64,000 nt of DNA from the NCBI GenBank assembly GCA_964554645.1, contig CAZKPK010000001.1, positions 3,697 to 67,696 on the forward strand. Reading direction: 5' to 3'. Shown piece by piece: positions 9,523 to 59,596 of the stretch (position 1 is its first letter; each line of letters starts with the position of its first letter). The DNA is from an uncultured Candidatus Saccharibacteria bacterium (lineage in GTDB: Bacteria; Patescibacteriota; Minisyncoccia; Phycocordibacterales; UBA9973). The notes under the pieces are model-generated. The model saw only the letters and a program-made list of their open reading frames with translations, did not search any database and was not told the origin of the DNA. The position numbers and the translations under genes are program-made.

Positions 9523-9596
9523 GGGGTACTCCGACTTCAGTCGGAGTGGGGTGGATGTATGAGGGGTGACCCGATGACCATCGGGTCGGGGTGGAT
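9510..9596 (-). repeat. family A repeat, tandem pair in inverted orientation
   Basis: ATTCCCCTCTTGAGGGGTA-CTCCGACTTCAGTCGGAG-TGGGGTGGAT + GTATGAGGGGTG-ACCCGATGACCATCGGGT-CGGGGTGGAT; reverse complement of family A consensus. Confidence 0.9.
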
Positions 9597-10271: not shown

Positions 10272-10276
10272 TTTTT

Positions 10277-10897: not shown

Positions 10898-10973
10898 AAT
10901 AATTTCGCCCGAGCCGGAAAGGCTTTAGGGCTAAAAAATTAAAATTCCAATAGAGCGAACATAAAATAAAAAA

Positions 10974-11399
10974 ATGCCAAAAATAAGAAACATCATAATA
11001 TTTATAGCCATCGGAGCAGCCTTCGTTTTAATTTATGTTTTTTTTATAAAAAATCCTCCCGGTGATGATATAGCTCCCCTGATTTCCTCTTCGCAGACTT
11101 CGGCGATCTCGAATACAAATACAACAACGGGGAACGTAAATGGGATTGCCGCTCAAGATTTTCTAAGTTTGCTCTTGAGTGTTAAAAATATAAAATTAAA
11201 TGACACTATCTTTTCTGATGATGCATTTACCAGTTTGCGTGATTCTAGCATTACACTTACCCCGGATGGAAATGAAGGCAGACCAAATCCATTCGCTCCA
11301 ATCGGCGCTGATATTTTGCCGCCGGCGAATGCCAACACCCCAACGGGACAGACCGGAAGCGGAGGCGCTGGAACCGGAGTTCCCGCCTTGCCTCAATAA
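10974..11399 (+). CDS. hypothetical membrane-anchored protein of pilus cluster
   Basis: 141 aa; N-terminal TM IIIFIAIGAAFVLIYVFF, low-complexity Pro/Gly/Thr C-terminus. Confidence 0.55.
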   Translation: MPKIRNIIIFIAIGAAFVLIYVFFIKNPPGDDIAPLISSSQTSAISNTNTTTGNVNGIAAQDFLSLLLSVKNIKLNDTIFSDDAFTSLRDSSITLTPDGNEGRPNPFAPIGADILPPANANTPTGQTGSGGAGTGVPALPQ

Positions 11400-11402
11400 A
11401 TT

Positions 11403-14684: not shown

Positions 14685-14689
14685 AAAGA

Positions 14690-14732
14690 CCACAGGTCAG
14701 ACCTGTGGGATTCCCATAGGTCTGACCTATGG
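14690..14732. repeat. family B palindromes, tandem pair (REP-like)
   Basis: CCACAGGTCAGACCTGTGG (14690-14708) and CCCATAGGTCTGACCTATGG (14713-14732) between pilT stop and pilC start. Confidence 0.9.
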
Positions 14733-14744
14733 AACAATAAAGAT

Positions 14745-15953: not shown

Positions 15954-15957
15954 GATT

Positions 15958-16059
15958 GATTCTCCTCTTGAGGAGTACTCCGACTCAGGTCGGAGGGAGG
16001 TGGATGAGTTTTTCCACCCCGTCCTTTGATTACAAAGTCCACCCCTCAAGAGGGGAATC
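15958..16059. repeat. family A inverted doublet (REPIN-like)
   Basis: Reverse unit GATTCTCCTCTTGAGGAG..GGGAGGTGGAT (15958-16005) faces forward unit TCCACCCC..CCCCTCAAGAGGGGAATC (16013-16059); 18-nt terminal inverted repeats, 2 mismatches. Confidence 0.9.
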
Positions 16060-16134
16060 GCTACCCCTGTGGATAACTTTCTTGCATGTTTTTTTGCCTC
16101 TATATGATATAATTACTCCATTAGAAAAATATTT

Positions 16135-16162
16135 CAGCCATAGGCTGATCCGCCTTAGGCGG
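16135..16162 (-). repeat. family D double-hairpin repeat
   Basis: CAGCCATAGGCTGATCCGCCTTAGGCGG = reverse complement of CCGCC-TAA-GGCGG-AT-CAGCC-TAT-GGCTG. Confidence 0.8.
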
Positions 16163-16203
16163 AAAAAATAAGTCGAAAATATATTATTATTAGTTAATTA
16201 TTA

Positions 16204-17955: not shown

Positions 17956-18783
17956 ATGCTTTTTTTGCTTTTGGTTATTTTTTTCATCCTCGGTCTCATC
18001 ATCGGCAGCTTTTTGAATGTGATAATTTATCGGCTGAATACAGCCAGATCGTTCGGAGGCAGGAGCGCTTGTATGTCTTGTCAGAACAGGCTTTGCTGGT
18101 ATGAACTTATCCCACTCTTTAGTTTTTTGGGTCTTGGGGGGAGATGCCGAAGCTGTAAAACTAAAATTTCTATCCAATATCCGTTGGTGGAACTTGCGAC
18201 TGGCTTGATTTTCGCCTTGTTATTTTTTAAACTGCAAGATGTTTTTTATACTAATTCTCTGGTTTTTTTCATCACTTATGATTACTTTGCTTTATTGTTT
18301 TCACTTCTTCTAGTCATTGCCACTTATGATCTCAAACATAAAATAATTCCGGATATTTTGTCTTTTGCTTTTGGCGCGCTTGCTTTTATTGGCCTATTTT
18401 TCTTCTCCGCCCAAGGCGGATCCGCCTTTGGCGGAAATAATATTTTTTACCCCCATTTTCCCACAGTTTTAGAATTTTTGTCGGGTGGATTAATAGCGTT
18501 ACCTTTTGCTTTTTTTTGGCTTGTATCTTCCGGTCGGTGGATGGGGTTAGGGGATGCCAAGCTTGCGCTCGGCATTGGGTGGTTTTTAGGCATATCTTCT
18601 GCGCTCTCGGCTTTAGTGGTTGCTTTCTGGTCTGGAGCCATCGTCGGAATAATTCTCGTTATTTTTTCCAGAAATAGAAAAATTGGCAGGCTGGGGATGA
18701 AAAGCGAAATTCCTTTTGCCCCTTTCCTAGTTTTTGGCGCGTTTCTAGCTTTTATTTTTGGATTGAATCTTTTTGGAATTTAA
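17956..18783 (+). CDS. pilD: prepilin peptidase (A24 family)
   Basis: 275 aa; CMSCQNRL..CRSCKTKI zinc motif, YPLVE, GLGDAKL active-site Asp. Confidence 0.93.
   Translation: MLFLLLVIFFILGLIIGSFLNVIIYRLNTARSFGGRSACMSCQNRLCWYELIPLFSFLGLGGRCRSCKTKISIQYPLVELATGLIFALLFFKLQDVFYTNSLVFFITYDYFALLFSLLLVIATYDLKHKIIPDILSFAFGALAFIGLFFFSAQGGSAFGGNNIFYPHFPTVLEFLSGGLIALPFAFFWLVSSGRWMGLGDAKLALGIGWFLGISSALSALVVAFWSGAIVGIILVIFSRNRKIGRLGMKSEIPFAPFLVFGAFLAFIFGLNLFGI
18407..18434 (+). repeat. family D-like double hairpin inside pilD ORF
   Basis: CCGCC-CAA-GGCGG-AT-CCGCC-TTT-GGCGG, translated SAQGGSAFGG. Confidence 0.75.
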
Positions 18784-20593: not shown

Positions 20594-23222
<2,629 letters not shown>

Positions 23223-29438: not shown

Positions 29439-31367
29439 ATGAAAATTTCTTATAATTGGCTCAAATGGTATATACCGGAAGCGCCTCCCGCAAACAAACT
29501 TGCGGATATTTTTAATTACCATATTTGCGAAGTGGAGAGTGTCCAACACCGAGTGTTGGACAAAGATAAAGATTGGATTTTTGATTTAAAAGTTTTGCCG
29601 AACCGCGCGCATGATTTACTTTCACATCAGGGAGTCGCTCGCGAGCTTGCTTCACTTTTAGATATCAAATATGTAGATCCCACGCCGAAATATAAAATTC
29701 CCGCCTCCGCCAAGGCTGCCCCCTTCGCTGAAGTGGCTACGAAGGCCAAGTCGGCGGGCAAGCCGGAATTAAAAATTGATGTTCAAACGCCTTTATGCAG
29801 GCGATATATGGGCAGAATTATAAGGGGAATAAAAATCGGTCCCAGTCCGGAGTGGATGGTGAAGCATTTAGAATCAATAGGACAGAGAAGTATAAATAAT
29901 ATTGTAGATGCCGCCAATATTGTAATGTTTGATTGCGGACAGCCGACTCATGCTTTTGATCTGGATAAAATGAATAGCAAGATAATAGTGCGCGAGGCAG
30001 AAAATGACGAAGACATAACCACTTTAGATAATCAGGGAATAAAATTAAAAAGTTCAAATATGGTGATTGTAGATTCTAAAAATATTTTAGCGATTGCCGG
30101 AATAAAAGGCGGGAAGATTGCGGAAGTGGACAATAATACAAAAAATATAATTCTTGAGGTTGCTAATTTTGATCCGGTTTCGGTGCGGAAAACAGCTCAA
30201 GCCTTTAATCTATTTACCGACGCGCGAAAGAGGTTTGAAAATGACCTGTCGCCAGAATTGGCACCATATGCCATGCGCGAACTCTCGGCTCTCATTTTTG
30301 AAATGTGTCCGGACGCTATTTTTGAAGATGTTGTGGATGTTTACCCCCACACCAATGATATTGGTGTGGGGGTTTATCCTGAAAAACAAAAGGAGAAAAA
30401 ACTTTCTTTTTCGGCTGAAAGAATTTCAAAAATTTTAGGACTCAAAGTTTCAGTTAAAGAAATAGAAAATATTTTGCAGAGATATAATTTTAGGTATAAA
30501 GAAAATAAAGGGAAATTTGAGGTTGTTGTGCCACCGATGCGTCTTGATTTAGCAATAGAAGAAGATATGGCGGAAGAGATAGGTAGAATTCTGGGATATG
30601 ATAAAGTAAAACCACAAATTCCCCACATGTCTGACATGTGGGAACCACAGGTTAATGAGATTTATGCAAAAATTTCCTGGGTCAGAAATAAATTATTGGC
30701 TGATGGATATTCCGAAGTGATGACTTATACTTTTCGAGAAAAGGGAGAAATAGAAGTGCAAAATAGCGCTTCCGATAAAAAGTTTTTGCGAACGAATTTA
30801 ACTGATGGATTGAAAGAAAGCGTTAAATTAAATCACGCCAATGCCCCGCTGTTAGGAATTGACGAAATTAAAGTTTTTGAAATTGGAACTGTTTTCAAAA
30901 AAGATAAAGAGCAGATAAATATTTGTTTTAGTGACAAAAAAAATATCACAGAAGTTTCTTTAAATGATTTTTGTAAAGATATGCTTTCTAGTGATTCTCC
31001 TCTTGAGGAGTACCCTTTAGGGGGAGGTGGAAAATTTATCCACCCCGTCGCAAGCGCCACCCCTCAAGAGGGGAATAGATTCAAGATGTGGTCTTTGTTT
31101 CCTTTCATTGCGCGCGATATCGCTGTCTTTGTGCCGGAAAAAATTAAGAGTTTGGAAATAGAAAAAATAATAAAAAAGAATATGGGAAATATGGTGATTC
31201 GAGGTCCGGAACTTTTTGATGAATTCAAAAAAGGCAATCAGATTTCTTATGCCTTCAGATTGGTTTTTCAATCTTACGATCGGACACTGACAGACGCAGA
31301 AGTGAATGAAATTATGGATAAAATAACTGACAAAATTAAGAAGAATAAAGGTTGGCAAGTAAGGTAA
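29439..31367 (+). CDS. pheT: phenylalanine--tRNA ligase beta subunit (reduced architecture, several repeat-derived inserts)
   Basis: 642 aa; MKISYNWLKWYI, LPNRAHDLLSHQGVAREL, B3_4 IVDAANIVMFDCGQPTHAFDLDK, C-terminal FPFIARDIAVFV. Confidence 0.93.
   Translation: MKISYNWLKWYIPEAPPANKLADIFNYHICEVESVQHRVLDKDKDWIFDLKVLPNRAHDLLSHQGVARELASLLDIKYVDPTPKYKIPASAKAAPFAEVATKAKSAGKPELKIDVQTPLCRRYMGRIIRGIKIGPSPEWMVKHLESIGQRSINNIVDAANIVMFDCGQPTHAFDLDKMNSKIIVREAENDEDITTLDNQGIKLKSSNMVIVDSKNILAIAGIKGGKIAEVDNNTKNIILEVANFDPVSVRKTAQAFNLFTDARKRFENDLSPELAPYAMRELSALIFEMCPDAIFEDVVDVYPHTNDIGVGVYPEKQKEKKLSFSAERISKILGLKVSVKEIENILQRYNFRYKENKGKFEVVVPPMRLDLAIEEDMAEEIGRILGYDKVKPQIPHMSDMWEPQVNEIYAKISWVRNKLLADGYSEVMTYTFREKGEIEVQNSASDKKFLRTNLTDGLKESVKLNHANAPLLGIDEIKVFEIGTVFKKDKEQINICFSDKKNITEVSLNDFCKDMLSSDSPLEEYPLGGGGKFIHPVASATPQEGNRFKMWSLFPFIARDIAVFVPEKIKSLEIEKIIKKNMGNMVIRGPELFDEFKKGNQISYAFRLVFQSYDRTLTDAEVNEIMDKITDKIKKNKGWQVR
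29700..29758. repeat. GC-rich imperfect long hairpin inside pheT
   Basis: CCCGCC..CCTTCG / CGAAGG..GGCGGG arms; translated PASAKAAPFAEVATKAKSAG; strong local GC excess. Confidence 0.55.
30343..30373. repeat. 31-nt perfect palindrome inside pheT
   Basis: ACCCCCACACCAAT-GAT-ATTGGTGTGGGGGT; flanked by GTTTAC/GTTTAT; translated YPHTNDIGVGV. Confidence 0.85.
30622..30642. repeat. family B variant palindrome inside pheT
   Basis: CCCACATGTCTGACATGTGGG (21 nt), translated PHMSDMW (compare HRSDLW from canonical copies). Confidence 0.8.
30993..31076. repeat. family A inverted doublet inserted in frame in pheT
   Basis: GATTCTCCTCTTGAGGAG..GGGAGGTGGA + ATCCACCCCGTCGCAAGCGCCACCCCTCAAGAGGGGAAT; 84 nt = 28 codons (DSPLEEYPLGGGGKFIHPVASATPQEGN). 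Confidence 0.9.
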
Positions 31368-33507: not shown

Positions 33508-34095
33508 ATGAAAAAATTAATCTTAGCTTCAAGTTCAAGCACAAGGAAAAATTTGCTTACAGAAGCCGGCTTGAATTTTGAAATTGATCCAAGTAGTTAC
33601 GAAGAAGATATAACATTATTAATGTCTCCAAAAGAATTAGTGGCTCATTTATCTTACGGTAAAGCAAAAGATGTAGCATCGAGGCACCAAGAAGCCATAG
33701 TTCTAGGAGCTGATACAATTATTGTCTATCAAGATAAAATTCTCGGTAAACCTCATACATCGGAAAGAGCTAAAGAAATGTTAAAAATGTTAAGTGGTAG
33801 GGCACACTTAGTTGTTACTGGTTTTACAATAATTGATACGAAAAATAATCATAGCATCTCCAAAGTTGTAGAAACAGAAGTGTTTTTCAAAAATCTCACA
33901 GATAGAGAAATAGATAATTATGTAGCTACCGGTGAACCACTGAATAAAGCAGGGGCTTATGCAATTTTAGAGAATGGTGGCAAATTTGTTAAAAAGATCG
34001 AAGGAAGTAGAACAAATGTGTCAGGTTTACCCATGGAGGAGTTAATGAATGTTCTAAAAAATTCCCATAGGTCAGACCTATGGGATGTGTTATAA
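33508..34095 (+). CDS. maf: Maf-like nucleoside triphosphate pyrophosphatase
   Basis: 195 aa from ATG 33508; KLILASSSSTRKNLL, GADTIIVYQDKILGKP, AGAYAI; last residues (HRSDLWDVL) encoded by a family B palindrome. Confidence 0.88.
   Translation: MKKLILASSSSTRKNLLTEAGLNFEIDPSSYEEDITLLMSPKELVAHLSYGKAKDVASRHQEAIVLGADTIIVYQDKILGKPHTSERAKEMLKMLSGRAHLVVTGFTIIDTKNNHSISKVVETEVFFKNLTDREIDNYVATGEPLNKAGAYAILENGGKFVKKIEGSRTNVSGLPMEELMNVLKNSHRSDLWDVL
34064..34084. repeat. family B palindrome (left flank of RAYT gene)
   Basis: CCCATAGGTCAGACCTATGGG. Confidence 0.9.
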
Positions 34096-34102
34096 TAGCA
34101 GT

Positions 34103-34780
34103 ATGAGTCTCAGAGATTCGAATTTAGTGGAAAAAGAGTATTATCATATTTACAATCGCGGTAATGGAAAAAATAAAATTTTTAATTCCATAGAAGATTA
34201 CGATCGTTTTTGTAAACTTCTTTTTATTTGTAATTCTGAAAGAAGTTTTACATTCAGAGATTCAGTCGTAGATCAAAAAATTGATGCCTGGGATTTTGAA
34301 AGGGGAGAACCGCTTGTGGAAATATGTGCATGGGTTTTAATGCCTAATCATTTCCATATAATTTTAATTTCCCATAGGTCGGACCTATGGGATGAGAAGT
34401 ATAATCCAATAACGGAATTTATGAGAAAACTTTCTACGGCTTACGCTATGTATTTTAATAAGAAATATAACCGCACTGGATCTCTTTTTGAAGGAAAGTT
34501 TAAGTCTAAACATATTAGCAAAGATAATTATTTCCATTATTTATTTTCTTACATTCATCTTAATCCAATTAAATTAATCCAACCAGATTGGAAAGAAAAT
34601 GGTATCAAGAATAAAAAAGAAGCGATTGCTTATCTTATGAATTTTAAATATTCAAGTTTTCAAGATTTTTATGGTGTCTCTAGAAAAGAAGGAAAGATAA
34701 TAAATAAGAATTCGTTACCAGAAGATTTTAAATACAATCATGTTGAGGAACTTTTTGAATGGATAACTGATTCCCCATAG
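34103..34780 (+). CDS. IS200-like Y1 HUH transposase, REP-associated (RAYT-like)
   Basis: YHIYNRGN, HUH motif LMPNHFHIIL, catalytic Tyr motif YIHLNP; flanked by palindromes at 34064 and 34773. Confidence 0.85.
   Translation: MSLRDSNLVEKEYYHIYNRGNGKNKIFNSIEDYDRFCKLLFICNSERSFTFRDSVVDQKIDAWDFERGEPLVEICAWVLMPNHFHIILISHRSDLWDEKYNPITEFMRKLSTAYAMYFNKKYNRTGSLFEGKFKSKHISKDNYFHYLFSYIHLNPIKLIQPDWKENGIKNKKEAIAYLMNFKYSSFQDFYGVSRKEGKIINKNSLPEDFKYNHVEELFEWITDSP
34371..34391. repeat. family B palindrome inserted inside the RAYT ORF
   Basis: CCCATAGGTCGGACCTATGGG, 21 nt = 7 codons (SHRSDLW), 2 residues after the HUH motif. Confidence 0.9.
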
Positions 34781-34795
34781 GTCAGACCTATGGGG
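34773..34795. repeat. family B palindrome (right flank; provides RAYT stop codon)
   Basis: CCCCATAGGTCAGACCTATGGGG; the TAG at 34778-34780 is the stop. Confidence 0.9.
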
Positions 34796-37636: not shown

Positions 37637-38593
37637 ATGGCCAATAGGCACCTTTCCAGATCAATAGTGCTCCAAACGCTTTTTGAGTGGGATTTTATGT
37701 CCGCTGGGAAAGAGAGTATCAGTTCTATTAATGGCGAGATTAAGAAAGTATTGGACAGAAATTTAAAAGAATTTGCTCCCGGACTCGAAGATGACAGTTT
37801 TGTTTTTTCGCTTTTAAATGAAGTGTTAAAAAATTGTGTTCGGGTTGATCAAATTATAGAAACATCAGCGCCGGATTGGCCGATAAATAAAATTTCTGTC
37901 GTTGATAGAAATATTCTCCGAATCGGATTAACGGAACTTCTTTTCAGCGACCGATCGCAAGTGCCCCCAAAAGTGGCGATTAACGAAGCGATTGAATTGG
38001 CAAAAACTTTTGGCGGAGAGAATTCCAGTAAATTTATAAACGGCGTACTCGGAGCAGTTTATAAAGAAATGGGTGAACCTGGCAAGGAGCAAACGAGCAA
38101 AAAGAAAAATCGCAATCAATCCAAAGAACAGGGAAAAACGTTGGACCTCACCAAACTGCCGGTTGAAAACTTGGGCGGCGCGTTAGTTTATGCAACAAAA
38201 GATGGGAATATTTTATTTGCGCTTGTGCATGATGTTTTTGGCTACTGGACTCTTTCTAAAGGCAAAGTCGAAAAAAAGGAAAGTGTTCAGGAAGGGACAG
38301 TAAGAGCAATCAAGAAGGAAATCGGGCTTGATGTTGTGCTAGAAGAAAAACTTGGGGAAAATGAATATGTTGCAACCCACCCAGAAAAAGGAAAAAGCCT
38401 GAAGAAAGTTATATATTTTTTGGCGTATAGCGAATACAAGGAGCTTATTTTGGAAAAATCCGGCGGACTCGATGGGGCCAGATGGTTTGAAATGATGGAG
38501 GTGCCGGAACTTCGCATTTATAATGACATTATTCCGCTTATTGAAAAGGCGGTCGAAATATTGAGCAGTAAAAAACAAAAGAACAGTCAATAA
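37637..38593 (+). CDS. nusB: NusB antitermination factor fused to a C-terminal NUDIX hydrolase domain
   Basis: 318 aa; NusB core (ILRIGLTELLF, VAINEAIELAKTFGG, KFINGVLG); Lys-rich linker; NUDIX box GKVEKKESVQEGTVRAIKKEIGL. Confidence 0.85.
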   Translation: MANRHLSRSIVLQTLFEWDFMSAGKESISSINGEIKKVLDRNLKEFAPGLEDDSFVFSLLNEVLKNCVRVDQIIETSAPDWPINKISVVDRNILRIGLTELLFSDRSQVPPKVAINEAIELAKTFGGENSSKFINGVLGAVYKEMGEPGKEQTSKKKNRNQSKEQGKTLDLTKLPVENLGGALVYATKDGNILFALVHDVFGYWTLSKGKVEKKESVQEGTVRAIKKEIGLDVVLEEKLGENEYVATHPEKGKSLKKVIYFLAYSEYKELILEKSGGLDGARWFEMMEVPELRIYNDIIPLIEKAVEILSSKKQKNSQ

Positions 38594-38617: not shown

Positions 38618-39313
38618 ATGATTCAACTTTCAAATTTTGAGAAAAAAACAAAAATAATTTTTAGGGATAAGAATTTGCTCAAACAAGCTTTTATTCATCG
38701 TTCTTACATAAATGAAAATCCGTCGACCACTCTTTCGCACAATGAACGCTTAGAATTTCTGGGAGATGCCGTGCTGGAACTTATTGTCACAGATTTTCTT
38801 TATAAAAAATACCCGAATTATACGGAAGGGGAACTGACTGCTCTGCGTTCAGCTTTAGTTAATGCTGTCATTATTTCTGAAGTTGCCGCCAAAATCGGCA
38901 TGAATGATTATTTGCTTTTATCTAAAGGAGAAGCCAAAGATGGCGGCAAAGCCAGACAGTATATTTTGGCAAACACATACGAAGCCTATATTGGAGCCAT
39001 ATATTTGGATCAAGGAATAAATATCGCGGATAAATTTGTCAGGAAAACCCTTTTGCTCAAAACGGATGAAATAGTAAATAAAAAACTTTGGCGGGATGCG
39101 AAATCTCTAGTGCAAGAAAAAGCGCAGGAGTTAGTGAATGTTACGCCTGCCTATAAAGTGCTAAAAGAATCCGGTCCCGATCACGATAAAAATTTTACAG
39201 TTGGTATTTATTTTGGCGGGAGTTTGATAGCCGAAGGCAAAGGTCAATCCAAGCAAGAAGCAGAACAATCTGCCGCCCTGAATGCGTTAAAGGTAAAAAA
39301 TTGGCTGGATTGA
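38618..39313 (+). CDS. rnc: ribonuclease III
   Basis: 231 aa; ERLEFLGDAVLELIV signature, C-terminal dsRBD. Confidence 0.95.
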   Translation: MIQLSNFEKKTKIIFRDKNLLKQAFIHRSYINENPSTTLSHNERLEFLGDAVLELIVTDFLYKKYPNYTEGELTALRSALVNAVIISEVAAKIGMNDYLLLSKGEAKDGGKARQYILANTYEAYIGAIYLDQGINIADKFVRKTLLLKTDEIVNKKLWRDAKSLVQEKAQELVNVTPAYKVLKESGPDHDKNFTVGIYFGGSLIAEGKGQSKQEAEQSAALNALKVKNWLD

Positions 39314-39376: not shown

Positions 39377-39595
39377 ATGAATACTATTACTGTGTCTAAA
39401 AACAAAATAGAAAAAGAGGGTGGAGTAGTACTTCTTTCCCTTAGGGAGTATCGAAAAATTCAAATGTCTTCGATGCCTATTTATTACTTGCAAAGCAAAG
39501 AAGCAAGGAATTTGGATAAATTGGTAAAAAACGGGCTCAAGAGTTATAAAGATGGTAAAACTAAAGTTCTGAAATCTTTTGCGGATTTTGATTAA
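39377..39595 (+). CDS. putative type II antitoxin
   Basis: 72 aa from ATG 39377; immediately precedes the RelE-like toxin (5-nt gap); no strong family motif. Confidence 0.55.
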   Translation: MNTITVSKNKIEKEGGVVLLSLREYRKIQMSSMPIYYLQSKEARNLDKLVKNGLKSYKDGKTKVLKSFADFD

Positions 39596-39599
39596 TTTT

Positions 39600-39866
39600 A
39601 TGAAGATACGAGAGGTGCGGATTAATGCCAGATTTGAAAAGAATTATAAAAAACTTCCCTATAAAATAAAGGGCAAAGCGAAAGTCAAAGAAAGAATTTT
39701 TAGAGAAAATGTTTTTCATTCGATTCTTCGCACTCATAAATTGCACGGTGAGGAAAAAGAAGCTTGGGCCTTTTGGATTGATTACACTTATCGCATTAAG
39801 TTTATTTTTCTTAGTGAAGGAGTTGTGCTTTTTCTAGATGTTGGCACTCATGATATTTATAATTAA
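39600..39866 (+). CDS. RelE/StbE-family mRNA interferase toxin
   Basis: 88 aa; FEKNYKKLP, THKLHGE..WAFWIDYTYRIKF, VGTHDIY. Confidence 0.8.
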   Translation: MKIREVRINARFEKNYKKLPYKIKGKAKVKERIFRENVFHSILRTHKLHGEEKEAWAFWIDYTYRIKFIFLSEGVVLFLDVGTHDIYN

Positions 39867-39948: not shown

Positions 39949-42117
39949 ATGCGACTCAAAACTCTTGAACTGAATGGCTTTAAATCTTTTTCTCAAAAAA
40001 CAGTTTTGGAGTTTGATAACAGTATTGTCTGCATTGTCGGTCCGAACGGTTCAGGAAAATCAAATGTAGTAGAAGCCATCCGTTTTGTCTTGGGCGAGCA
40101 ATCAATGAAATCAATGCGTGGCAAGACGGGCGTTGATCTCATTTTCAAAGGATCCAAAAATTTGCCTAGGAAAACGCGGGCGGCCGTTACAATATATTTC
40201 AATAACTCTGACAAAATTTTTAGGCTTGAGGATGGTGTAGGAGAAAACATGAATTTGAATTATGACACTATCAGCATAACGCGCCAGGTTTTCCCTGACG
40301 GACTCAATAAATATATTTTAAATGGGACAGAAGTGCGCCTGAAAGATATTCACCACCTTCTGGCCTCGGTTAACATAGGTTCTTCCGGGCATCATATTAT
40401 TTCCCAGGGCGAGGCTGATAGGATTCTGAATGCCAGCCCAAAAGATAGGAAGGAAATGGTGGAAGATGCGTTGGGGCTCAAAATTTACCAGTATAAAATA
40501 AAAGAATCTGAGAGAAAACTGGAAAGAACAGAGAACAATATGAAAGAAGTGACCATGTTGCGCAGAGAAAATGCTCCGCACCTTAATTTCTTAAAGAAAC
40601 AAGTAGAAAAATTTGAAAGGGCGAAAGAAATGCAGGCAGAGTTAGCAATTCTCTACCAAGAATATTTAAAAAAAGAAAACGTTTATTTAAATAAAGAGAA
40701 GGAAAATTTTCTCGCAGAAAGAAATAAAATAGCCAAAGAACTGGAAAGTGTTGTTAGTAAAATTTCTCTGACTGAAGACAGTGGTTCAGCTAAGGGAAAT
40801 CAAAAAATAGAGGAGCTAAGAACTATTGAGCAAAAATTAAATGAAATCCGCAGCGCCAAGGGAGAAATGAACAGAAAACTGGGAAGAATTGAAGGGATGA
40901 TAGAGGCCAAACAGAATAGAGTTAAAATTTCTGGCCGGTGTCCCATGTGTGGCAGAGAGTGGGGGGAAATGAGCAAAGAACAACTCGAAAACAGAGAAAA
41001 CAATCAGCAAGAATTAGCAGAATTGAAAAATTCTCAAGCTGGTATTCTAACGCAGGTGCAGGAAATGGAAAATAAAGAGAAAGAGCTTGTCGATCAGATA
41101 GAAGAATTGAAGCAGGAAATAAATAAACAGATGGAAACCTTGCGCGATTTGGAGCGGGAGAAGTTCAGCTTTAAGGTTAGGCATCAGGAATTGTCTTCAG
41201 CTTTGGAACTGGTGCGCATCAAAGAAACGAATTTAAAAGGCAGGCTTGAAGCCTTTGAAAGTGAGATCAAAGAAGGTGTAGCGCTTATAGGTCAAGAGAT
41301 TTTGTCCTATCCGCCCGAGGCGGACCAGCCTTGGGCTGGTAAAGAAATAGATGAAACAAGGCAAGCTGAGTTAAAGAAAAAAATTGAGCGTTTGAAAATA
41401 AAATTGGAAGATGCCGGTCTTGGCGGCGGAGCGGAAGTTTTGAAAGAATTCAAAGAAGTTTCGGAGAGGGATAATTTTTTAGCGAAAGAAATGGAAGATT
41501 TATCTAAAAGCATGGTGGCGTTGCAAAAGCTCATAGAAGATTTAAAGGAAAAGATAGACACAGAATTCAAGGAGGGTATCAAAAAAATAAACAAAGAATT
41601 TCAAGAATTTTTCTCCTTAATGTTTGGCGGGGGGACGGGATCTCTTGCGATAGTGGTGGAGAATAAAAAGAGACGAAGTATGAGCGAAGAAGAGGCTAAA
41701 TTCAGCGAAGCTGAATCGCCCGACGCTTCTGAAGAAGCGTTTAGGGAAGAGATTGTTTTTGAACAGGGCATAGAAATAAATGTTTCACTTCCTCATAAAA
41801 AGGTCAAAGAGCTTCAGGCGCTCTCGGGCGGGGAGCGATCACTCACTTCTATTGCTCTTCTCTTTGCGATGTCGCAAGTGAATCCTCCGCCATTTTTGGT
41901 GCTTGATGAAACCGATGCTGCGCTGGACGAAGCCAACTCGCGCAAATATGGAGATATGTTGGAAAAACTTTCCAAACATTCTCAGCTTATTGTTGTTACC
42001 CACAACCGCGAGACGATGTCCCGCGCCGGCGTGCTCTATGGCGTAACGATAGGCGGAAATGACACCTCCAAGCTTCTTTCTGTTAAATTCGAAGAAGCCA
42101 CCCAAATTGCGAAATAA
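39949..42117 (+). CDS. smc: SMC-family chromosome segregation ATPase, short form with central CxxC instead of a hinge
   Basis: 722 aa; N-head LNGFKSF..GPNGSGKSNVVEAIRFVLGEQS; C-head LSGGERSLTSIALLFA..LVLDETDAALD; CPMCGREW at residues 331-338; no hinge-like segment seen. Confidence 0.9.
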   Translation: MRLKTLELNGFKSFSQKTVLEFDNSIVCIVGPNGSGKSNVVEAIRFVLGEQSMKSMRGKTGVDLIFKGSKNLPRKTRAAVTIYFNNSDKIFRLEDGVGENMNLNYDTISITRQVFPDGLNKYILNGTEVRLKDIHHLLASVNIGSSGHHIISQGEADRILNASPKDRKEMVEDALGLKIYQYKIKESERKLERTENNMKEVTMLRRENAPHLNFLKKQVEKFERAKEMQAELAILYQEYLKKENVYLNKEKENFLAERNKIAKELESVVSKISLTEDSGSAKGNQKIEELRTIEQKLNEIRSAKGEMNRKLGRIEGMIEAKQNRVKISGRCPMCGREWGEMSKEQLENRENNQQELAELKNSQAGILTQVQEMENKEKELVDQIEELKQEINKQMETLRDLEREKFSFKVRHQELSSALELVRIKETNLKGRLEAFESEIKEGVALIGQEILSYPPEADQPWAGKEIDETRQAELKKKIERLKIKLEDAGLGGGAEVLKEFKEVSERDNFLAKEMEDLSKSMVALQKLIEDLKEKIDTEFKEGIKKINKEFQEFFSLMFGGGTGSLAIVVENKKRRSMSEEEAKFSEAESPDASEEAFREEIVFEQGIEINVSLPHKKVKELQALSGGERSLTSIALLFAMSQVNPPPFLVLDETDAALDEANSRKYGDMLEKLSKHSQLIVVTHNRETMSRAGVLYGVTIGGNDTSKLLSVKFEEATQIAK
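41311..41339 (+). repeat. family D double hairpin inside smc
   Basis: CCGCC-CGA-GGCGG-AC-CAGCC-TTG-GGCTG; translated PPEADQPWAG. Confidence 0.8.
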
Positions 42118-44154: not shown

Positions 44155-44433
44155 TTATTCTAATAACTTTGGATGCGAGCCTATGTCTACCAAAAGCAAC
44201 ACTAATTCTTTTTCTAAAATTTTATATATTAACAAAACATTCGGATATATATGACATTCGCGCGCGCCTTCCAATTTGCCTTTTAATTTATGGTCTCTAT
44301 ATGCTGGGTCTAGGGGAATTTGTTTCTGAATTAATAATATTATTTTTTCAAGTTTAAAAATAGAAAAACTCTCATGCCTTAAGTATATTTTCAAAGACTT
44401 TTGATATTTCTTTGATTTAATTACCGAGAGCAT
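44155..44433 (-). CDS. yafQ: YafQ-family type II toxin (RelE superfamily)
   Basis: 92 aa; DHKLKGKLEGARECHIYPNVLLIYK..DIGSH. Confidence 0.85.
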   Translation of the reverse strand: MLSVIKSKKYQKSLKIYLRHESFSIFKLEKIILLIQKQIPLDPAYRDHKLKGKLEGARECHIYPNVLLIYKILEKELVLLLVDIGSHPKLLE

Positions 44434-44721
44434 TTATTTCTTGTTTAAAATAGTAGAATGCAATTCTCTAATGCTTTTATAAGATTTTATTTTTTTATTT
44501 TTAAGATCATTCACGGTATTTTCTATTTCTTTGGCAAGCTCGGACTCATATTCATCAGTATATCCATTTATAGTTTTTAGTTCAAAGGGAATGCGCTGTT
44601 GTTCCACACTTTGGTGCAAAAAGAGCTTCACTGCACTCGATATATCGAGTCCCATGCGCGCAAAAGTCTTACGGGCGTCTTCTTTTATCTTTTCGTCAAT
44701 TCGTATATTTAATGTAGTCAT
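44434..44721 (-). CDS. dinJ: RelB/DinJ-family antitoxin
   Basis: 95 aa from ATG 44721 (MTTLNIRIDEKIKEDARKTFARMGLDISSAVKLFL); the longer track ORF reads through the promoter. Confidence 0.85.
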   Translation of the reverse strand: MTTLNIRIDEKIKEDARKTFARMGLDISSAVKLFLHQSVEQQRIPFELKTINGYTDEYESELAKEIENTVNDLKNKKIKSYKSIRELHSTILNKK

Positions 44722-44728
44722 AGAATTT

Positions 44729-44764
44729 AGTATATACATTGTGCGCACAAAGTCAAGTCTTGAC
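44729..44764 (-). promoter_or_regulatory. dinJ-yafQ promoter with two palindromic operators
   Basis: Minus strand: TTGACT (44756-44751), 16 nt, TATACT (44734-44729). TTGTGCGCACAA (44739-44750) fills the spacer. GTCAAGTCTTGAC (44752-44764) overlaps the -35. Confidence 0.6.
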
Positions 44765-44966
44765 AATAGGGTCAAGATATGCGATACTATCAGAGATATG
44801 TTTTTACCTTTGTTGATAGTTATAGCTATCATCATGCTATGCGTGACGATGGCGTGGTTGAAGGACGAGGATAGGTAATTCTCGTCCAAGTTCAAAAAGC
44901 TGGCACGTCCAAGGTCGTGCTAGCTTTTTTGTTTGCAATTTTTCATTTTTATGTTAGACTTACTAA

Positions 44967-45287: not shown

Positions 45288-45403
45288 TTATATACAATAC
45301 AGATATGGAGCAGTGCATCCGGTCGTAAAACTGCTAAACATTTCCACCTGAGGTGGATTCGCCTTTGGAGGAAAAAATTAAAAGTAATTTACTGAAATAA
45401 CAT

Positions 45404-53100: not shown

Positions 53101-53791
53101 TCCCGCCTCTGGCGGGACAGGTGTAAAATCTGCTCACTCCCGCGATATTTCAGGATCCGGCGGGGAAAAAATAATCAAAGTGCTTTCAGATCTGGAAGAT
53201 AGTAAGGCGGGGGCTAAAAACGAAATAGAATATCTTGTTCCGTTTCACAGAATGCCTACCGTTAAAGCAGGTGATCACATAAAGAAAGGGGATCTCCTAA
53301 CTGACGGGTCAGCGGATATTGCTGAAATGTTTAAATTTGGCAACAAGGAATTAGTCGAAAATTATATAATTCGGGAAATAAACAAAGTTTATGAATTGCA
53401 AAGCGCTTCAATTTCCAGAAAGCATACGGAAATAATTATCCGCCAAATGTTTTCGCGCCGAAAAATAAAAGACGCGGGCGACACTAATTTTTCCATCGGC
53501 GATATTGTTGAGAATACCGCATTTATAGAAGAAAATCAGAGAGTTGCGCGCTTGGCGGTTAAACCGCCAAGCGCGCTTGGCGGTTTAACCGCCAAAGCAG
53601 AAACAGTGGTGCTTGGTATCACGGAAGTGTCGCTTCGCACTAAAAGTTGGCTCTCGGCGGCTTCGTTCCAAAACACCAATCGCGTTCTTATTGAAAACGC
53701 GGTCAAGGGCGGGGTAGATTCTTTGAGAGGGTTAAAAGAGAATGTTATAATCGGTAGGTTAATTCCGGCTGGAACTGGATTTAAAAAATAA
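50120..53791 (+). CDS. rpoC: DNA-directed RNA polymerase subunit beta'
   Basis: 1223 aa; Zn CYCGKY..CEKCGV, NADFDGDQMAV, GEAVGIIAAQAIGEPGTQLTLRTFH. Confidence 0.98.
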   Translation: MKTLNTTEFNSIALRLASPEQIKEWSFGEVTKPETINYRTGRSERGGLFDEKIFGPEKDYECYCGKYRRIRYKDIICEKCGVEVTRSIVRRERMGHIELGTPVSHIWFLRGVPSRMSILLNISVTDLEKVIYFAGYIITKVHEDEKEAVIANLDKEYKSKLKNATDDDTREKLKNLLSITKKEIGEIYEGKVLNEISFHHYSLKYGTCFEANIGAEAIYSIFKNLDLDKLKTHTEKMIEKASVAEKEKLQKRLSLIRAMTYAGIRPEWMFLTVFPVIPPVLRPMVALDGGRHATSDLNDLYRRVINRNNRLKKLKEINAPDVILRNEKRIIQEAVDALIDNSIAKQNDSAAMSQSQKRPLKSLSDNLKSKQGLFRQNLLGKRVDYSGRSVIVVGPELKLNQCGLPKHMALELFRPFVISKILQAELAFNIRGANKLIEERGGEVWAMLEEVIAGKYVLLNRAPTLHRLGIQAFNPILIEGNAIQVHPLVCQAFNADFDGDQMAVYVPLLEEAQWEAKEFMASNKNLLKPQNGDPIVHPRMDMVLGSFWMTKSIEGEVGEGKYFSRPNTAVTAYDYGIISMRAKIKVLPMDKPKYKKFNGEIFETTVGRIIFNSILPDDFHYVNDEMTQDRLSSLLDELIMHSGVENIPHILDTIKAFGFKYSTISGTTWGLDNVSVSSEKPKIIAEGKKLEKEIISQWQEGLLSEEEKYQKVIEVWTHMKKNLEKVLPKTVDKHSSTYDIFTSKARGTMSSLMQMTGMIGLIQNNQGKTLEFPIIPCYQEGLSPIEYFVITHGARKGASDTALNTAKAGYLTRRLVDVAQDVVITEVDCGTKEGRIVTKENISGIEIPLSKNIRGRVLAGDLKNKNGKVVYKKGFLVTKEEAYNIEGAGFTEVFVRSPLTCRTVHGLCVMCYGLDLGRNRLVELGEAVGIIAAQAIGEPGTQLTLRTFHAGGVAGTDITTGLPRVEEIFERRIPKNPAIISETDGEVIEIKIKDPASGGTGVKSAHSRDISGSGGEKIIKVLSDLEDSKAGAKNEIEYLVPFHRMPTVKAGDHIKKGDLLTDGSADIAEMFKFGNKELVENYIIREINKVYELQSASISRKHTEIIIRQMFSRRKIKDAGDTNFSIGDIVENTAFIEENQRVARLAVKPPSALGGLTAKAETVVLGITEVSLRTKSWLSAASFQNTNRVLIENAVKGGVDSLRGLKENVIIGRLIPAGTGFKK
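53102..53116. repeat. GC hairpin within a GC-rich segment of rpoC
   Basis: CCCGCC-TCT-GGCGGG; surrounding 53095-53170 encodes DPASGGTGVKSAHSRDISGSGGE. Confidence 0.55.
53546..53597. repeat. family C palindrome doublet inside rpoC
   Basis: GCGCGCTTGGCGGTT-A-AACCGCCAAGCGCGC (31-nt perfect palindrome) + CTTGGCGGTTTAACCGCCAAAG; translated LAVKPPSALGGLTAK. Confidence 0.92.
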
Positions 53792-55761: not shown

Positions 55762-57579
55762 ATGTCCTCATCAGTTGACCAAATTAAATCACGAATAGAC
55801 ATCCTCTCGCTTGTAAGCTCTTATATCAAGCTAGATAAGGCAGGAGCGAGTTGGAAAGCCAAATGTCCGTTTCATAATGAAAAAACACCCTCATTTTTTG
55901 TCTCGCCGGAACGGGGGAGTTATTATTGTTTTGGTTGCGAGGCTTCGGGAGACATTTTCACTTTTGTGGAAGAATTTGAAGGGTTGGATTTTAAGGGCGC
56001 TCTGAAACTTTTAGCAGATCGCGCAGGAGTGGTGCTTGAAGTTTACAGTCAGGAAAAGAAAGAAGTAGGTGAATTGATTTTTTTGGAGAAAGAAAAATTA
56101 TATCGAGTGATGGAAGAAACCACGAAGTTTTTTGAAAATAATTTTCCGCCCAAGGCGGATCAGCCTCGAGCTGAAAAGGAAATAAAAGAAGCATTAGAGT
56201 ATCTGAAATCGCGTGGTTTAACCGATAAAACTATCAAAGATTTTAGAATAGGTTATGCCATTCTTGATTGGCGAACACTTTATGATTACCTAAAGTCTAA
56301 GAATTTTTCTGATGAAGAAATAGAGCTTGCCGGATTGGCCAAGAAACCGGAAGACAAGACAAAAGCAATGTATGACCGCTTTCGCGGACGCATAATGTTC
56401 CCAATTTCCGATTCCAGTGGCCGGATTATTGCTTTTTCGGGAAGAATTCTGATTGATGATGGAAAATCGGCGAAGTATTTAAATAGTCCGGAAACCCCGA
56501 TATTTAATAAATCTTCCGTGCTTTTTGGCATAGATAAAGCAAAAGATTCCATCCGCAAAAATAACTTTTCCATTTTAGTTGAAGGGCAGATGGATTTAGT
56601 TTTATCGCATCAGGTCGGTTTTAAAAATACTGTTGCATCTTCTGGCACGGCGATGAATGATTCGATAATATCTAAAGAGAACATTATAAATAATTTAGGG
56701 CTTGTTTGCAGATTATCTAAAAATATCGTTCTGGCTTACGATGCTGACAAAGCGGGAGTGAATGCTTCCAATCGTTTTGCAAAAATCGCATTATCTTTAG
56801 GGATGGATGTGAAAGTGGCCAGTATGAGAGAGGGTGTCGATCCAGCCGATATTATCTCCAAAGAGGGTAAAGATGCGTGGCATCAAGCAATCCGAGATTC
56901 AAAACATTTTATTCCATTTATGCTAGAGCGAATCTTGAAAGATGCATCTGGTGATGGAAGAAAAGTGGGCAGAGGAATTCAAGAACGTCTTTTGCCTTTT
57001 CTGAAGGATTTAGACAGCGCGATGGAAAAATCCCATTTTATCAAACTTATTAGCGATAAATCCGGCATAGCTGAAAAAGCTCTAATGGAGGATTTGCAGA
57101 AAGTAGAGTCAGAATTGAAATATGAAACAGAAGAAATCAAAATCGCGAAAGAAAATGTGGACAAAAAATTGAGAAAAGATCCGATTGAACGCAGACTGCT
57201 GGGAATAGCTTTTTGGCAGGAAAGTGTTAAAAGTAAGATCGTAGATCCAGAAATCATTTTTGCGAAACTAGGTAAAGTGAAGGAATATTATAAAGACAAA
57301 AAAGAAGATTTAATTTTCGAAGCGGAAGCTTTTTATTCCAATAGCGAAAACTTACAAAAAGATGTGCGAGAGATGCTACTTTCGATTGAAGAAGAATATC
57401 TTAATGAGGAGCTTGTTAAGAAAATGATAGAACTTAAAAATCTGAAAGATGAAAAGGCTAAATCCAATGTAATTGGATCGCCCGACACTTCAGCAAAAGT
57501 GTTTAGGGACGAAGCAGAAATTTTAAAAAGAATAAATGAAATAAATAAGAGGAAAGAAGAAATTAAAAATAGTCGCTAA
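55762..57579 (+). CDS. dnaG: DNA primase
   Basis: 605 aa; Zn ribbon [45 protein letters not shown]. Confidence 0.96.
56146..56173 (+). repeat. family D double hairpin inside dnaG
   Basis: CCGCC-CAA-GGCGG-AT-CAGCC-TCG-AGCTG; translated [10 protein letters not shown]. Confidence 0.8.
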
Positions 57580-59551: not shown

Positions 59552-59596
59552 ATTCCCCTCTTGAGGGGTGGCTCGGTAATCCGAGACGGGGTGGAT
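59552..59596 (-). repeat. family A repeat unit directly after dsbA-like stop
   Basis: ATTCCCCTCTTGAGGGGTGG-CTCGGTAATCCGAG-ACGGGGTGGAT. Confidence 0.9.

What the first reader, a model, noticed from the sequence alone, without database searches (positions are those of the whole stretch)
39949..42117. SMC with canonical heads but a Rad50-like CxxC hook where the hinge should be
The N- and C-terminal head halves are unmistakably SMC: GFKSF, GPNGSGKSNVVEAIRFVLGEQS, LSGGERSLTSIALLFA and LVLDETDAALD. The protein is only 722 aa, whereas canonical bacterial SMC is much longer, and I see no globular hinge segment with its Gly-rich motifs. Instead, near the midpoint (residues 331-338, nt 40939-40962), the heptad-rich sequence is interrupted by SGRCPMCGREW. 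That closely resembles the Rad50/SbcC zinc-hook consensus (CPxCGR). The arms on either side are roughly 150-185 residues. The inference is an SMC that dimerises through a zinc hook, a head/apex combination not expected for SMC-ScpAB.
Basis: partly seen in the sequence, partly recalled or inferred. Interest (0 to 1): 0.75.

Follow-up and report, generated by a model that had tools for sequence, protein, structure and literature searches.

The report
Natural bacterial SMC with zinc hook
This ultra-small (CPR) bacterium's chromosome-organising SMC protein has half-length arms and a Rad50-style two-cysteine zinc hook where the hinge should be, and close relatives repeatedly swap that hook for a small helical cap, which suggests the SMC tip need only hold two arms together.

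Summary
ORF 39949-42117(+) encodes a 722-aa protein whose head halves are bacterial SMC (TIGR02168 526 bits; B. subtilis Smc head E=1.7e-76; Rad50 models about 80 bits). It has intact ATPase motifs and sits in the classic slot downstream of rnc. It has no hinge: one folded-back coiled coil (helices 178-326 and 343-559) ends in a 16-residue loop carrying C331-P-M-C334-G.

[quoted passage not shown] CPxCG is invariant in 121/121 close orthologs, with no other conserved Cys or His nearby, so a Cys4 zinc site needs two chains.

The short, hinge-less SMC is widespread in Paceibacteria/Nomurabacteria-type CPR bacteria, and most members lack the hook. They carry a cysteine-free two-helix hairpin about 40 aa longer. 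Of 79 species-level orthologs, 49 have the hook and 30 the hairpin, all at the same rnc-smc locus and interleaved in the tree. Pairs are up to 87% identical outside the apex. A second hook class (C[PRK]YCGQ) exists elsewhere.

This is the natural counterpart of the engineered B. subtilis Smc with a Rad50 hook. Zinc binding, dimerisation and ScpAB partnership are untested.

The parts
39949..42117 (+). Complete gene for the 722-aa hinge-less, short-armed SMC (stop codon 42115-42117)
   Evidence: ORF list. Pfam SMC_N 4.6e-60 over residues 3-706. TIGR02168 SMC_prok_B 525.8 bits.
39949..40479 (+). N-terminal half of the ABC ATPase head (residues 1-177), with Walker A GPNGSGKS at residues 31-38 (nt 40039-40062) and Q-loop SQG at residue 152
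   Evidence: phmmer against B. subtilis, Geobacillus and Thermotoga Smc heads, E 1e-60 to 1e-76. Motif scan.
40480..40926 (+). N-terminal (outbound) coiled-coil strand, residues 178-326, with a short break at 274-279
   Evidence: AF2 secondary structure, pLDDT about 80-90 along the arm.
40876..40896 (+). KLGRIEG motif (residues 310-316), invariant in both hook and hook-less orthologs. It is the left boundary of the exchanged apex segment.
   Evidence: Invariant columns. Pairwise alignments show identity collapsing immediately after it.
40927..40974 (+). Apex loop (residues 327-342, ISGRCPMCGREWGEMS). The zinc-hook core CPMCG is residues 331-335, nt 40939-40953.
   Evidence: Non-helical loop between the two arm helices. 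The only significant PDB hits are the Rad50 zinc hooks 1l8d (1.4e-7) and 6zff. C, P, C and G are invariant in 121/121.
40975..41625 (+). C-terminal (returning) coiled-coil strand, residues 343-559, interrupted at 448-468 and 490-493
   Evidence: AF2 secondary structure.
41307..41341 (+). In-frame copy of a 35-nt palindromic repeat (family D1) encoding YPPEADQPWAGK. It lies in the hypervariable arm linker (residues 450-475) and is not part of the hook.
   Evidence: Repeat family D1 with copies at 16131, 18403, 41307, 45340 and 56142. The linker is 19-33 aa and variable in orthologs.
41626..42114 (+). C-terminal half of the ATPase head (residues 560-722), with signature LSGGE at 625-629 (nt 41821-41835), Walker B LDETDA at 652-657 (nt 41902-41919, catalytic Glu retained) and H-loop THN at 684
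   Evidence: phmmer against Smc head C-terminal halves. Motif scan.
38618..39313 (+). rnc (RNase III) directly upstream on the same strand. This is the conserved syntenic anchor of bacterial smc.
   Evidence: Pfam annotation of the same contig. rnc lies within 1 kb upstream in 45/49 hook and 29/30 hook-less orthologous loci.

Best explanation
This is the organism's housekeeping SMC, the ortholog of bacterial Smc. It belongs to a lineage (Nomurabacteria/Paceibacteria, candidate phyla radiation) that has lost the globular hinge and about half of each arm. Each chain folds back on itself into an antiparallel coiled coil of roughly 22-25 nm. At its tip, a short loop presents Cys331 and Cys334. Two chains are proposed to share one zinc ion through four cysteines, as in Rad50/SbcC, giving a permanently linked homodimer. 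Its ATPase heads engage and disengage with ATP in the usual SMC way to hold and move DNA, presumably closed into a ring by a kleisin. Shown here by computation: the SMC identity of the heads, the absence of a hinge, the position and invariance of CPxCG at the coiled-coil apex, its specific similarity to solved Rad50 hooks, the orthologous genomic position, and the repeated replacement of the hook by an unrelated helical hairpin on nearly identical chassis. Inferred: zinc binding, hook-mediated dimerisation, kleisin partnership and a chromosome-segregation role. The repeated replacement implies that in this lineage the apex is required only as a dimerisation device.
For: The heads are bacterial SMC: TIGR02168 scores 525.8 bits against about 83 for Rad50, 60 for ASRP and 55 for RecN. 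B. subtilis Smc head gives E=1.7e-76 against 5e-13 for Rad50. Foldseek's top hits are prokaryotic Smc head and coiled-coil constructs (5xei, 5.6e-22), with Rad50 at rank 9 and LmuB at rank 38. All catalytic motifs are intact, including the Walker B glutamate. The rnc-smc synteny is conserved. There is no hinge. The apex segment hits only Rad50 zinc-hook crystals (1l8d 1.4e-7, 6zff 7.7e-7; as a profile 6.9e-5), aligned on G[KR]CPxCGRE[LW]. CPxCG is invariant in 121/121, and with only two ligands per chain and no other conserved Cys or His nearby, a Cys4 site requires two chains. A second, independent hook class, C[PRK]YCGQ, is conserved in 46 relatives of P0140. Hook and hairpin forms occupy the same locus and are up to 87% identical outside the apex, so the two apices are functionally interchangeable in nature. 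Experimental precedent exists: B. subtilis Smc with its hinge replaced by the P. furiosus Rad50 hook supports normal growth, including some shortened-arm versions (PMC5344682). A Rad50 with a MukB hinge also works in yeast (PMC6969161).
Against: There is no experimental evidence of zinc binding or dimerisation. AF2 confidence at the hook is below 50, and only a monomer could be modelled. Pfam Rad50_zn_hook is below its gathering threshold. The TIGR02168 score falls under the curated equivalog cut-off (525.8 against 567.35). No scpA or scpB was found in the window, its contig flanks or 1.66 Mb of smc-proximal DNA from relatives. That does not show absence, but it leaves the kleisin partnership unsupported. 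The arms are shorter than any B. subtilis construct shown to be functional (253-267 aa was the shortest functional range). Loss of the hook in many orthologs shows the cysteines are not indispensable to the family.
Confidence: 0.72

Rival explanations
1. It is the SMC ortholog, but the CxxC is not an inter-chain zinc hook. The two cysteines could form a disulfide or redox switch, an incomplete metal site, or a docking knuckle for a partner, with dimerisation (if any) coming from the coiled-coil tip itself.
For: The Pfam hook model is sub-threshold. Weak sub-threshold similarity to zinc-ribbon knuckles (Zn_ribbon_PF0610, Ribosomal_S14). Many orthologs manage with no cysteines at all.
Against: Each chain has only two ligands and no conserved third or fourth ligand. 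The motif sits exactly at the turn of an antiparallel coiled coil. The flanking coiled coil also aligns with Rad50 hook crystals. The Pro after Cys1 and the Gly after Cys2 are invariant, as in the CPxCG hooks of Rad50 and LmuB. The alternative apex is a structured helical hairpin rather than nothing, which argues that the position needs a dedicated module.
Confidence: 0.12
2. It is a hook-linked SMC-type dimer that works without a kleisin, in the manner proposed for archaeal coalescin (ClsN/ASRP), organising the small chromosome by bridging or compartmentalising rather than as a tripartite ring.
For: ASRPs are SMC-related, about 600 aa, have a zinc hook and organise chromosomes (PMC9389158). 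The ASRP model aligns from residue 329 onward. No kleisin gene was seen in any DNA examined.
Against: The ASRP score is 60 bits against a cut-off of 300, while bacterial SMC scores 526. The heads are close to Smc heads crystallised with ScpA (3zgx, 5xg3, 5xns). scpAB is normally not linked to smc, so failing to see it near smc is uninformative.
Confidence: 0.1
3. It is not the housekeeping condensin but a defence-type SMC-like ATPase, such as Lamassu LmuB (about 650 aa, roughly 20-nm arms, CPxCG hook) or a MADS mad3-like protein.
For: PADLOC hits: mad3 at 211 bits (heads only) and LmuB at 115 bits. LmuB's size, short arms and CPxCG hook resemble this protein (PMC10586767).
Against: The SMC profile scores far higher (526 bits). 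The Walker B glutamate is retained, whereas LmuB usually has Gln. Neighbours are rnc, nusB, thrS, rnr, rpsP and trmD, with no LmuA/LmuC or methylase/effector genes. The gene is at the same housekeeping locus in 74 of 79 species, unlike a patchy defence island. LmuB ranks only 38th structurally.
Confidence: 0.03
4. It is a Rad50/SbcC ortholog whose heads merely look SMC-like.
For: A zinc-hook motif, and significant similarity of the apex to Rad50 hook crystals.
Against: Rad50 NCBIfam models score 51-83 bits against cut-offs of 700-1087. Rad50 heads in the PDB give about 1e-13 against 1e-76 for Smc. No Mre11/SbcD gene is adjacent. The synteny is that of smc.
Confidence: 0.02

Closest known systems
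Bacterial Smc of the Smc-ScpAB complex (e.g. B. subtilis Smc; NCBIfam TIGR02168)
   Same: Head sequence and fold, all ATPase motifs, a single folded-back antiparallel coiled coil, and the genomic position downstream of rnc.
   Different: No hinge domain. Arms are about 160-200 residues per strand instead of 344. The apex is a 16-residue CPxCG loop. The score is below the curated equivalog cut-off. ScpAB partnership is unverified.
[quoted passage not shown] 2017, PMC5344682)
   Same: The same design, SMC heads and arms capped by a Rad50-type hook. Those chimeras supported growth, showing the design can work.
   Different: This one is natural, ancient and widespread. Its arms are shorter than any engineered construct shown to be functional. 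Nature also uses a second, helical apex on the same chassis. The survey in that paper seeded retrieval on hinge alignments, so it would have missed such proteins.
Rad50/SbcC zinc hook (PDB 1l8d, 6zff; Pfam PF04423)
   Same: CPxCG at the tip of an antiparallel coiled coil with two Cys per chain. Sequence similarity extends into the flanking coils.
   Different: The heads are not Rad50-type, there is no Mre11/SbcD partner gene nearby, and the Pfam model is sub-threshold.
Archaea-specific SMC-related proteins (ASRP: ClsN/coalescin, Sph1/2; PMC9389158)
   Same: SMC-superfamily chromosome organisers of about 600 aa with short arms and a zinc hook instead of a hinge.
   Different: A separate archaeal family that coexists with SMC. 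The score here is 60 bits against a cut-off of 300, and this protein is bacterial and orthologous to Smc itself.
Lamassu LmuB (PMC10586767)
   Same: About 650 aa, arms of roughly 20 nm, and often a CPxCG hook.
   Different: LmuB is a defence-operon component with LmuA/LmuC and a Walker B E-to-Q substitution. Sequence similarity is much weaker than to Smc, and the genomic context here is housekeeping.
'Hinge-less' SMC cluster from marine Actinobacteria-like metagenomes (Sussfeld et al. 2025, PMC12153180)
   Same: Bona fide SMC heads and a coiled coil without a hinge domain.
   Different: A different phylum. The authors state the CXXC motif is absent. No alternation of apex types was reported.

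Membership tests
Bacterial Smc (Smc-ScpAB; TIGR02168) | Split ABC ATPase head with Walker A, Q-loop, LSGGE signature, Walker B D-E and H-loop, most similar to bacterial Smc heads | tested here: met
   SMC_prok_B is the best family (525.8 bits). B. subtilis Smc head E=1.7e-76.
Bacterial Smc (Smc-ScpAB; TIGR02168) | Score at or above the curated equivalog cut-off (567.35 bits) | tested here: not met
   525.8 bits. The shortfall fits the missing hinge and half of the arms.
Bacterial Smc (Smc-ScpAB; TIGR02168) | Central globular hinge dimerisation domain (Pfam SMC_hinge) | tested here: not met
   No hit at E<=10. AF2 shows a 16-residue loop at the apex. None of about 500 relatives retrieved carries the domain in precomputed Pfam.
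Bacterial Smc (Smc-ScpAB; TIGR02168) | Long arms (about 340 residues per strand, about 47-50 nm) | tested here: not met
   Helices 178-326 and 343-559. This is near the shortest minor mode (163 aa) of natural prokaryotic Smc arm lengths.
Bacterial Smc (Smc-ScpAB; TIGR02168) | Orthologous genomic position (downstream of rnc), single copy | tested here: met
   A second copy elsewhere in the genome could not be excluded.
Bacterial Smc (Smc-ScpAB; TIGR02168) | Kleisin ScpA and kite ScpB encoded in the same genome and bound to the heads | not testable with these tools
   No genome-wide access to the MAG. No ScpA-like ORF in the window, contig flanks or 1.66 Mb of relatives' smc loci, which is uninformative because scpAB is normally unlinked to smc.
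Rad50/SbcC | CxxC zinc hook at the apex of the antiparallel coiled coil | tested here: inconclusive
   Significant match to hook crystals 1l8d and 6zff and invariant CPxCG, but Pfam PF04423 gives 15.9 bits against 24.3. Zinc binding was not tested.
Rad50/SbcC | Rad50-type ATPase head (NCBIfam Rad50/SbcC models) | tested here: not met
   51-83 bits against cut-offs of 700-1087. sbcc scores 35.5 against 478.5.
Rad50/SbcC | Partner Mre11/SbcD nuclease gene, usually adjacent | tested here: not met
   None within +/-10 kb in the source contig or in the 813-kb relative.
Lamassu LmuB | Operon with LmuA effector and LmuC; patchy defence-island distribution | tested here: not met
   Housekeeping neighbours, and the same locus in 74/79 species.
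Lamassu LmuB | Walker B Glu-to-Gln substitution (usual in LmuB) | tested here: not met
   LDETDA retains Glu654. The criterion comes from PMC10586767.
Archaeal ASRP (ClsN/Sph) | NCBIfam NF045487 at or above 300 bits; archaeal host | tested here: not met
   60.1 bits. The host is a CPR bacterium.

The most novel reading that the evidence does not exclude
In a whole bacterial radiation the SMC apex is a swappable cassette. The canonical hinge is gone. Two unrelated dimerisation devices, a Cys4 zinc hook (in at least two sequence classes) and a cysteine-free two-helix hairpin, have replaced one another repeatedly among close relatives. The exchange is probably by recombination between the conserved flanks (KLGRIEG on the left). 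If these proteins are the sole, functional condensins of their hosts, then hinge-specific activities (DNA binding, a DNA gate) and 50-nm arms are dispensable for SMC function in vivo. The choice between zinc-dependent and zinc-free tips may track metal or redox conditions, as with the Zn-ribbon and Zn-free ribosomal-protein paralogs.
Probability: 0.4. Interest if true: 0.85.

Novelty: new variant of a known kind. Interest (0 to 1): 0.72.

Why it matters
What the SMC hinge does beyond dimerisation (DNA entry gate, DNA binding, coupling to the heads), and why arm length is so conserved, are long-running questions. The main evidence that the hinge is replaceable comes from engineered B. subtilis and yeast chimeras. 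Here nature has run the same experiment at scale. Thousands of CPR bacteria carry an Smc ortholog with half-length arms and no hinge. The tip alternates between a Rad50-type zinc hook and a small helical cap on chassis up to 87% identical. That gives matched natural pairs for testing what the apex must do and whether loop extrusion works with arms of about 22 nm. It also gives a compact SMC (about 720 aa) that should be far easier to handle for structural and single-molecule work. Finally, it shows that hinge-seeded surveys and equivalog cut-offs under-annotate these proteins, which public records often call 'AAA family ATPase' or 'hypothetical protein'.

Tried and rejected
1. Degenerate hinge: rejected (no SMC_hinge at E<=10; apex loop of 16 residues).

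2. Hook as a repeat-derived insert: rejected (the hook DNA is unique in the window). The palindromic repeat in this gene lies at 41307-41341 in an arm linker.

3. Paralogy between hook and hook-less forms: rejected for the locus (same rnc-smc slot, no locus with two intact copies). A distant second copy is not excluded.

4. Single origin of the hook: rejected (0/100 bootstraps for monophyly; nearest-neighbour identities; a second motif class). The trees are simple NJ on p-distances.

Extending the window through the source contig added no relevant genes. Literature searches gave nothing usable, and the one hit concerned the host bacterium, not the CPR organism.

6. Homology of the helical-hairpin apex to known domains: none.

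7. Lamassu, MADS, Rad50, RecN and ASRP memberships: considered and rejected on scores, motifs and context.

8. Prior description: no paper in the searchable library combines SMC, a zinc hook and CPR/Patescibacteria. The library is incomplete, so a prior report cannot be excluded.
Full report
OBSERVATION. The ORF at 39949-42117 (+) exists as described and encodes 722 aa. C331-P-M-C334-G-R-E-W is encoded at nt 40939-40962. Pfam reports one SMC_N match spanning residues 3-706 (4.6e-60) and no SMC_hinge even at E<=10. An AlphaFold2 model built on 121 orthologs (mean pLDDT 68.6) has well-predicted arms at 80-90, weak heads, and a hook below 50. It shows one outbound helix (178-273, 280-326), a 16-residue non-helical loop (327-342) carrying the CPMCG, and a returning helical strand (343-447, 469-489, 494-559). 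There is no globular middle domain.

WHAT THE HEADS ARE. Among NCBIfam models the best is bacterial SMC (TIGR02168, 525.8 bits), followed by archaeal-type SMC (296). Rad50 models (51-83), ASRP (60), RecN (55) and SbcC (35) are far behind. The score is just below the equivalog cut-off of 567, as expected for a protein lacking the hinge and half the arms. Against PDB sequences the best matches are B. subtilis, Geobacillus, Thermotoga and Pyrococcus Smc heads (1.7e-76 to 1e-57). Eukaryotic SMC2/3/1/4 follow, and Rad50 appears only at about 1e-13. Foldseek agrees: the Pyrococcus Smc head with coiled coil and joint is first (5.6e-22), Rad50 is rank 9 and Lamassu LmuB rank 38. Walker A, Q-loop, LSGGE, Walker B (LDETDA, glutamate retained) and the H-loop are all intact.

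GENOMIC CONTEXT. The window comes from contig JACPLP010000008.1 of MAG GCA_016186455.1. The gene lies in a housekeeping block: thrS, rpmF, nusB-Nudix, rnc, [small toxin-antitoxin-like pair], smc, rnr, rpsP, KH, trmD, rpoB, rpoC. In a relative with an 813-kb contig, smc starts 20 nt after rnc. Across 80 loci from GTDB species representatives, rnc is directly upstream on the same strand in 74 of 79. rnc-smc is the classic bacterial arrangement (established knowledge; the B. subtilis strains in PMC5344682 also carry the smc-ftsY linkage). No Mre11/SbcD, LmuA/LmuC or other effector gene is nearby.

WHAT THE APEX IS. The 133-aa middle segment, searched alone against all PDB sequences, gives only two significant hits. 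[quoted passage not shown] ISGRCPMCGREW aligns to AKGKCPVCGREL, and the flanking coiled coil aligns as well. A profile of 18 orthologous apex segments gives the same two hits (6.9e-5 and 2.5e-4) and nothing else significant. Pfam's Rad50_zn_hook matches the correct core (profile positions 18-37) but below threshold, at 15.9 bits against 24.3. In 121 orthologs at 72-88% identity, C331, P332, C334 and G335 are invariant. No other Cys or His is conserved nearby, and the only other recurrent Cys is C28, in 85 of 121. Two ligands per chain at the turn of an antiparallel coiled coil is the Rad50 arrangement, in which two chains share one zinc (established knowledge, restated in PMC6969161). The hook DNA is unique in the window.

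THE WIDER FAMILY. A search of 1.84 billion cluster representatives shows that all top 150 relatives (41-70% identity) are also short, mostly 700-780 aa. Only 7 of them have a mid-protein CxxC; the others often have no cysteine at all. They carry an apex segment about 40 aa longer (median 75 against 34 residues over the same alignment columns). AF2 models it in the sister form P0121 as a two-helix hairpin (337-356 and 360-375, pLDDT about 74) at the tip of the same folded-back arm. It has no significant similarity to any solved structure. So the hinge-less, short-armed SMC is the norm in this part of the CPR (source labels: Nomurabacteria, Parcubacteria, Paceibacterota, Minisyncoccia, Vogelbacteria). 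The zinc hook is one of two alternative tips.

APEX SWITCHING. Of 79 species-level orthologs recovered from GTDB genomes, 49 carry CPxCG (705-735 aa) and 30 carry the hairpin (741-759 aa). Both types sit in the same rnc-smc slot, and no locus has two intact copies, so they are orthologs or alleles rather than paralogs at that locus. With the apex masked, hook forms are not monophyletic (0 of 100 bootstraps, NJ). Several sequences are closer to the other type than to their own. L020 (hook) is 87% identical to L074 and L068 (hairpin) against 82% to its best hook match. L047 (hook) is 84% identical to L080 (hairpin) against 74%. L059 (hairpin) is 85% identical to L036 (hook) against 81%. In such pairs the heads are 90-100% identical while identity collapses to 3-20% across the apex, beginning right after the invariant KLGRIEG motif. 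A second hook class, C[PRK]YCGQ, is conserved in 46 of the 120 nearest relatives of P0140, with a median of 710 aa against 753 aa for hook-less neighbours. The query clade is about 52% identical to those and 70% identical to hook-less P0121. Either apex cassettes were exchanged repeatedly by recombination, or two old alleles persist while the rest of the gene is homogenised. Both readings mean the two tips are interchangeable on one chassis.

MECHANISM. Inferred from the above and from established SMC and Rad50 biology, two chains are joined permanently at the tip by a shared Zn(Cys)4 site. Arms of about 160-200 residues per strand, roughly 22-25 nm and half of B. subtilis Smc, lead to ATPase heads that engage on ATP. 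A kleisin presumably closes the ring. The arm length lies near the shortest (163-aa) minor mode of natural prokaryotic Smc arms reported by Burmann et al. It is below the shortest B. subtilis constructs that supported growth, 253-267 aa. The design is known to be viable. B. subtilis Smc with the P. furiosus Rad50 hook in place of the hinge grows normally, and the authors concluded the nature of the dimerisation domain is 'surprisingly uncritical'. The reverse swap works in yeast Rad50. Their sequence survey was seeded on hinge alignments, so it would not have retrieved these proteins.

RIVALS. Lamassu LmuB shares the size, short arms and CPxCG hook and gives a 115-bit PADLOC hit. However, it normally has a Walker B Gln, lives in a defence operon and is patchily distributed. 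None of these applies here. The PADLOC mad3 hit (211 bits) covers only the generic head. Rad50/SbcC and ASRP/ClsN fail on head scores and context, though ClsN is a genuine functional precedent for a hook-linked chromosome organiser. A non-hook role for the cysteines cannot be excluded without biochemistry.

NOVELTY. Reviews define SMC by the hinge and Rad50 by the hook. The one report of natural 'hinge-less' SMC, in a marine Actinobacteria-like cluster, states that the CXXC motif is absent. Zinc-hook SMC-superfamily proteins are known in archaea (ASRP) and in defence systems (LmuB), but as separate families. I found no paper describing a bacterial Smc ortholog with a zinc hook, or alternation of apex types. 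The library is incomplete. I rate this a new variant of a known kind.

LIMITS. Zinc binding, dimerisation and function are untested. ScpAB, SbcCD and a possible second SMC could not be checked genome-wide. No ScpA-like ORF occurs in 1.66 Mb of DNA around smc genes of relatives, which is uninformative because scpAB is usually unlinked to smc. The trees are simple NJ on p-distances. The AF2 models are monomers built on shallow alignments, with low confidence in the heads and at the hook.

Noticed in passing
L038, L050, L053, L057, L059, L061-L066, L068, L069, L071, L072, L074-L086, L088 (SMC genes, about 10001-12250 in most loci); P0121: Orthologous SMCs at the same rnc-smc locus replace the zinc hook with a cysteine-free two-helix hairpin about 40 aa longer (consensus ...VEISQEEIK.II.EINNSIDEAISK....EIKPILERIK.ILKKF...). 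Hook and hairpin forms are interleaved in the tree, and pairs are up to 87% identical outside the apex.
   Followed up: yes
P0140, P0166, P0143, P0390-P0432 and others (apex near residue 330-350): A second, sequence-distinct hook class, C[PRK]YCGQ, is conserved in 46 of the 120 nearest relatives of P0140 (Vogelbacteria and Paceibacterota labels). This indicates at least two origins of a CxxC apex in short SMCs.
   Followed up: yes
window 41307-41341; also 16131-16165, 18403-18437, 45340-45374, 56142-56176: A 35-nt double-palindrome repeat (family D1, e.g. TTCTCCGCCCAAGGCGGATCCGCCTTTGGCGGAAA) is inserted in frame inside coding genes. It encodes YPPEADQPWAGK in the SMC arm linker and [12 protein letters not shown] in dnaG. 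The SMC linker (residues 450-475) is hypervariable in orthologs, and some (P0003, P0015) share the same insert.
   Followed up: partly
window 34064-34084, 34371-34391, 34774-34794 around ORF 34085-34780; also 14689-14733 and 30622-30642: The palindrome CCCATAGGTCAGACCTATGGG (family D2) flanks a 231-aa ORF with sub-threshold similarity to IS200-like Y1 transposases (Pfam Y1_Tnp, E=5e-4). The layout is that of a REP-associated tyrosine transposase with its REP sequences, and copies are dispersed elsewhere, including inside pheT.
   Followed up: partly
window 21354-21380, 21764-21809 (inside ligA) and 53551-53602 (inside rpoC): The palindromic repeat CTTGGCGGTTTAACCGCCAAG (family D3) lies in frame inside ligA and rpoC, giving ...GGLTAK... 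peptides. This is a further case of palindromic elements tolerated within essential genes, reminiscent of Rickettsia palindromic elements.
   Followed up: no
window 8388-8437, 9025-9118, 9505-9557, 15954-16059, 31039-31082, 59553-59575: Repeats built on CACCCCTCAAGAGGGGAA (families D4, D9, D17, I1, I22) occur between genes and inside ORFs. They give HPSRGE peptides in ORFs 8295-8945 and 9010-9522, and HPVASATPQEGN in pheT.
   Followed up: no
window 39377-39595 and 39600-39866: Two small genes (72 and 88 aa) are inserted between rnc and smc. The second has sub-threshold similarity to the YafQ/RelE-type toxin (E=0.015). They are absent from a relative where smc starts 20 nt after rnc (L001). A separate YafQ-RelB pair lies at 44155-44895 on the minus strand.
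   Followed up: partly
window 37637-38593: NusB is fused to a C-terminal Nudix hydrolase domain (318 aa). The fusion is conserved in the 813-kb relative (L001, PF01029 + PF00293).
   Followed up: no
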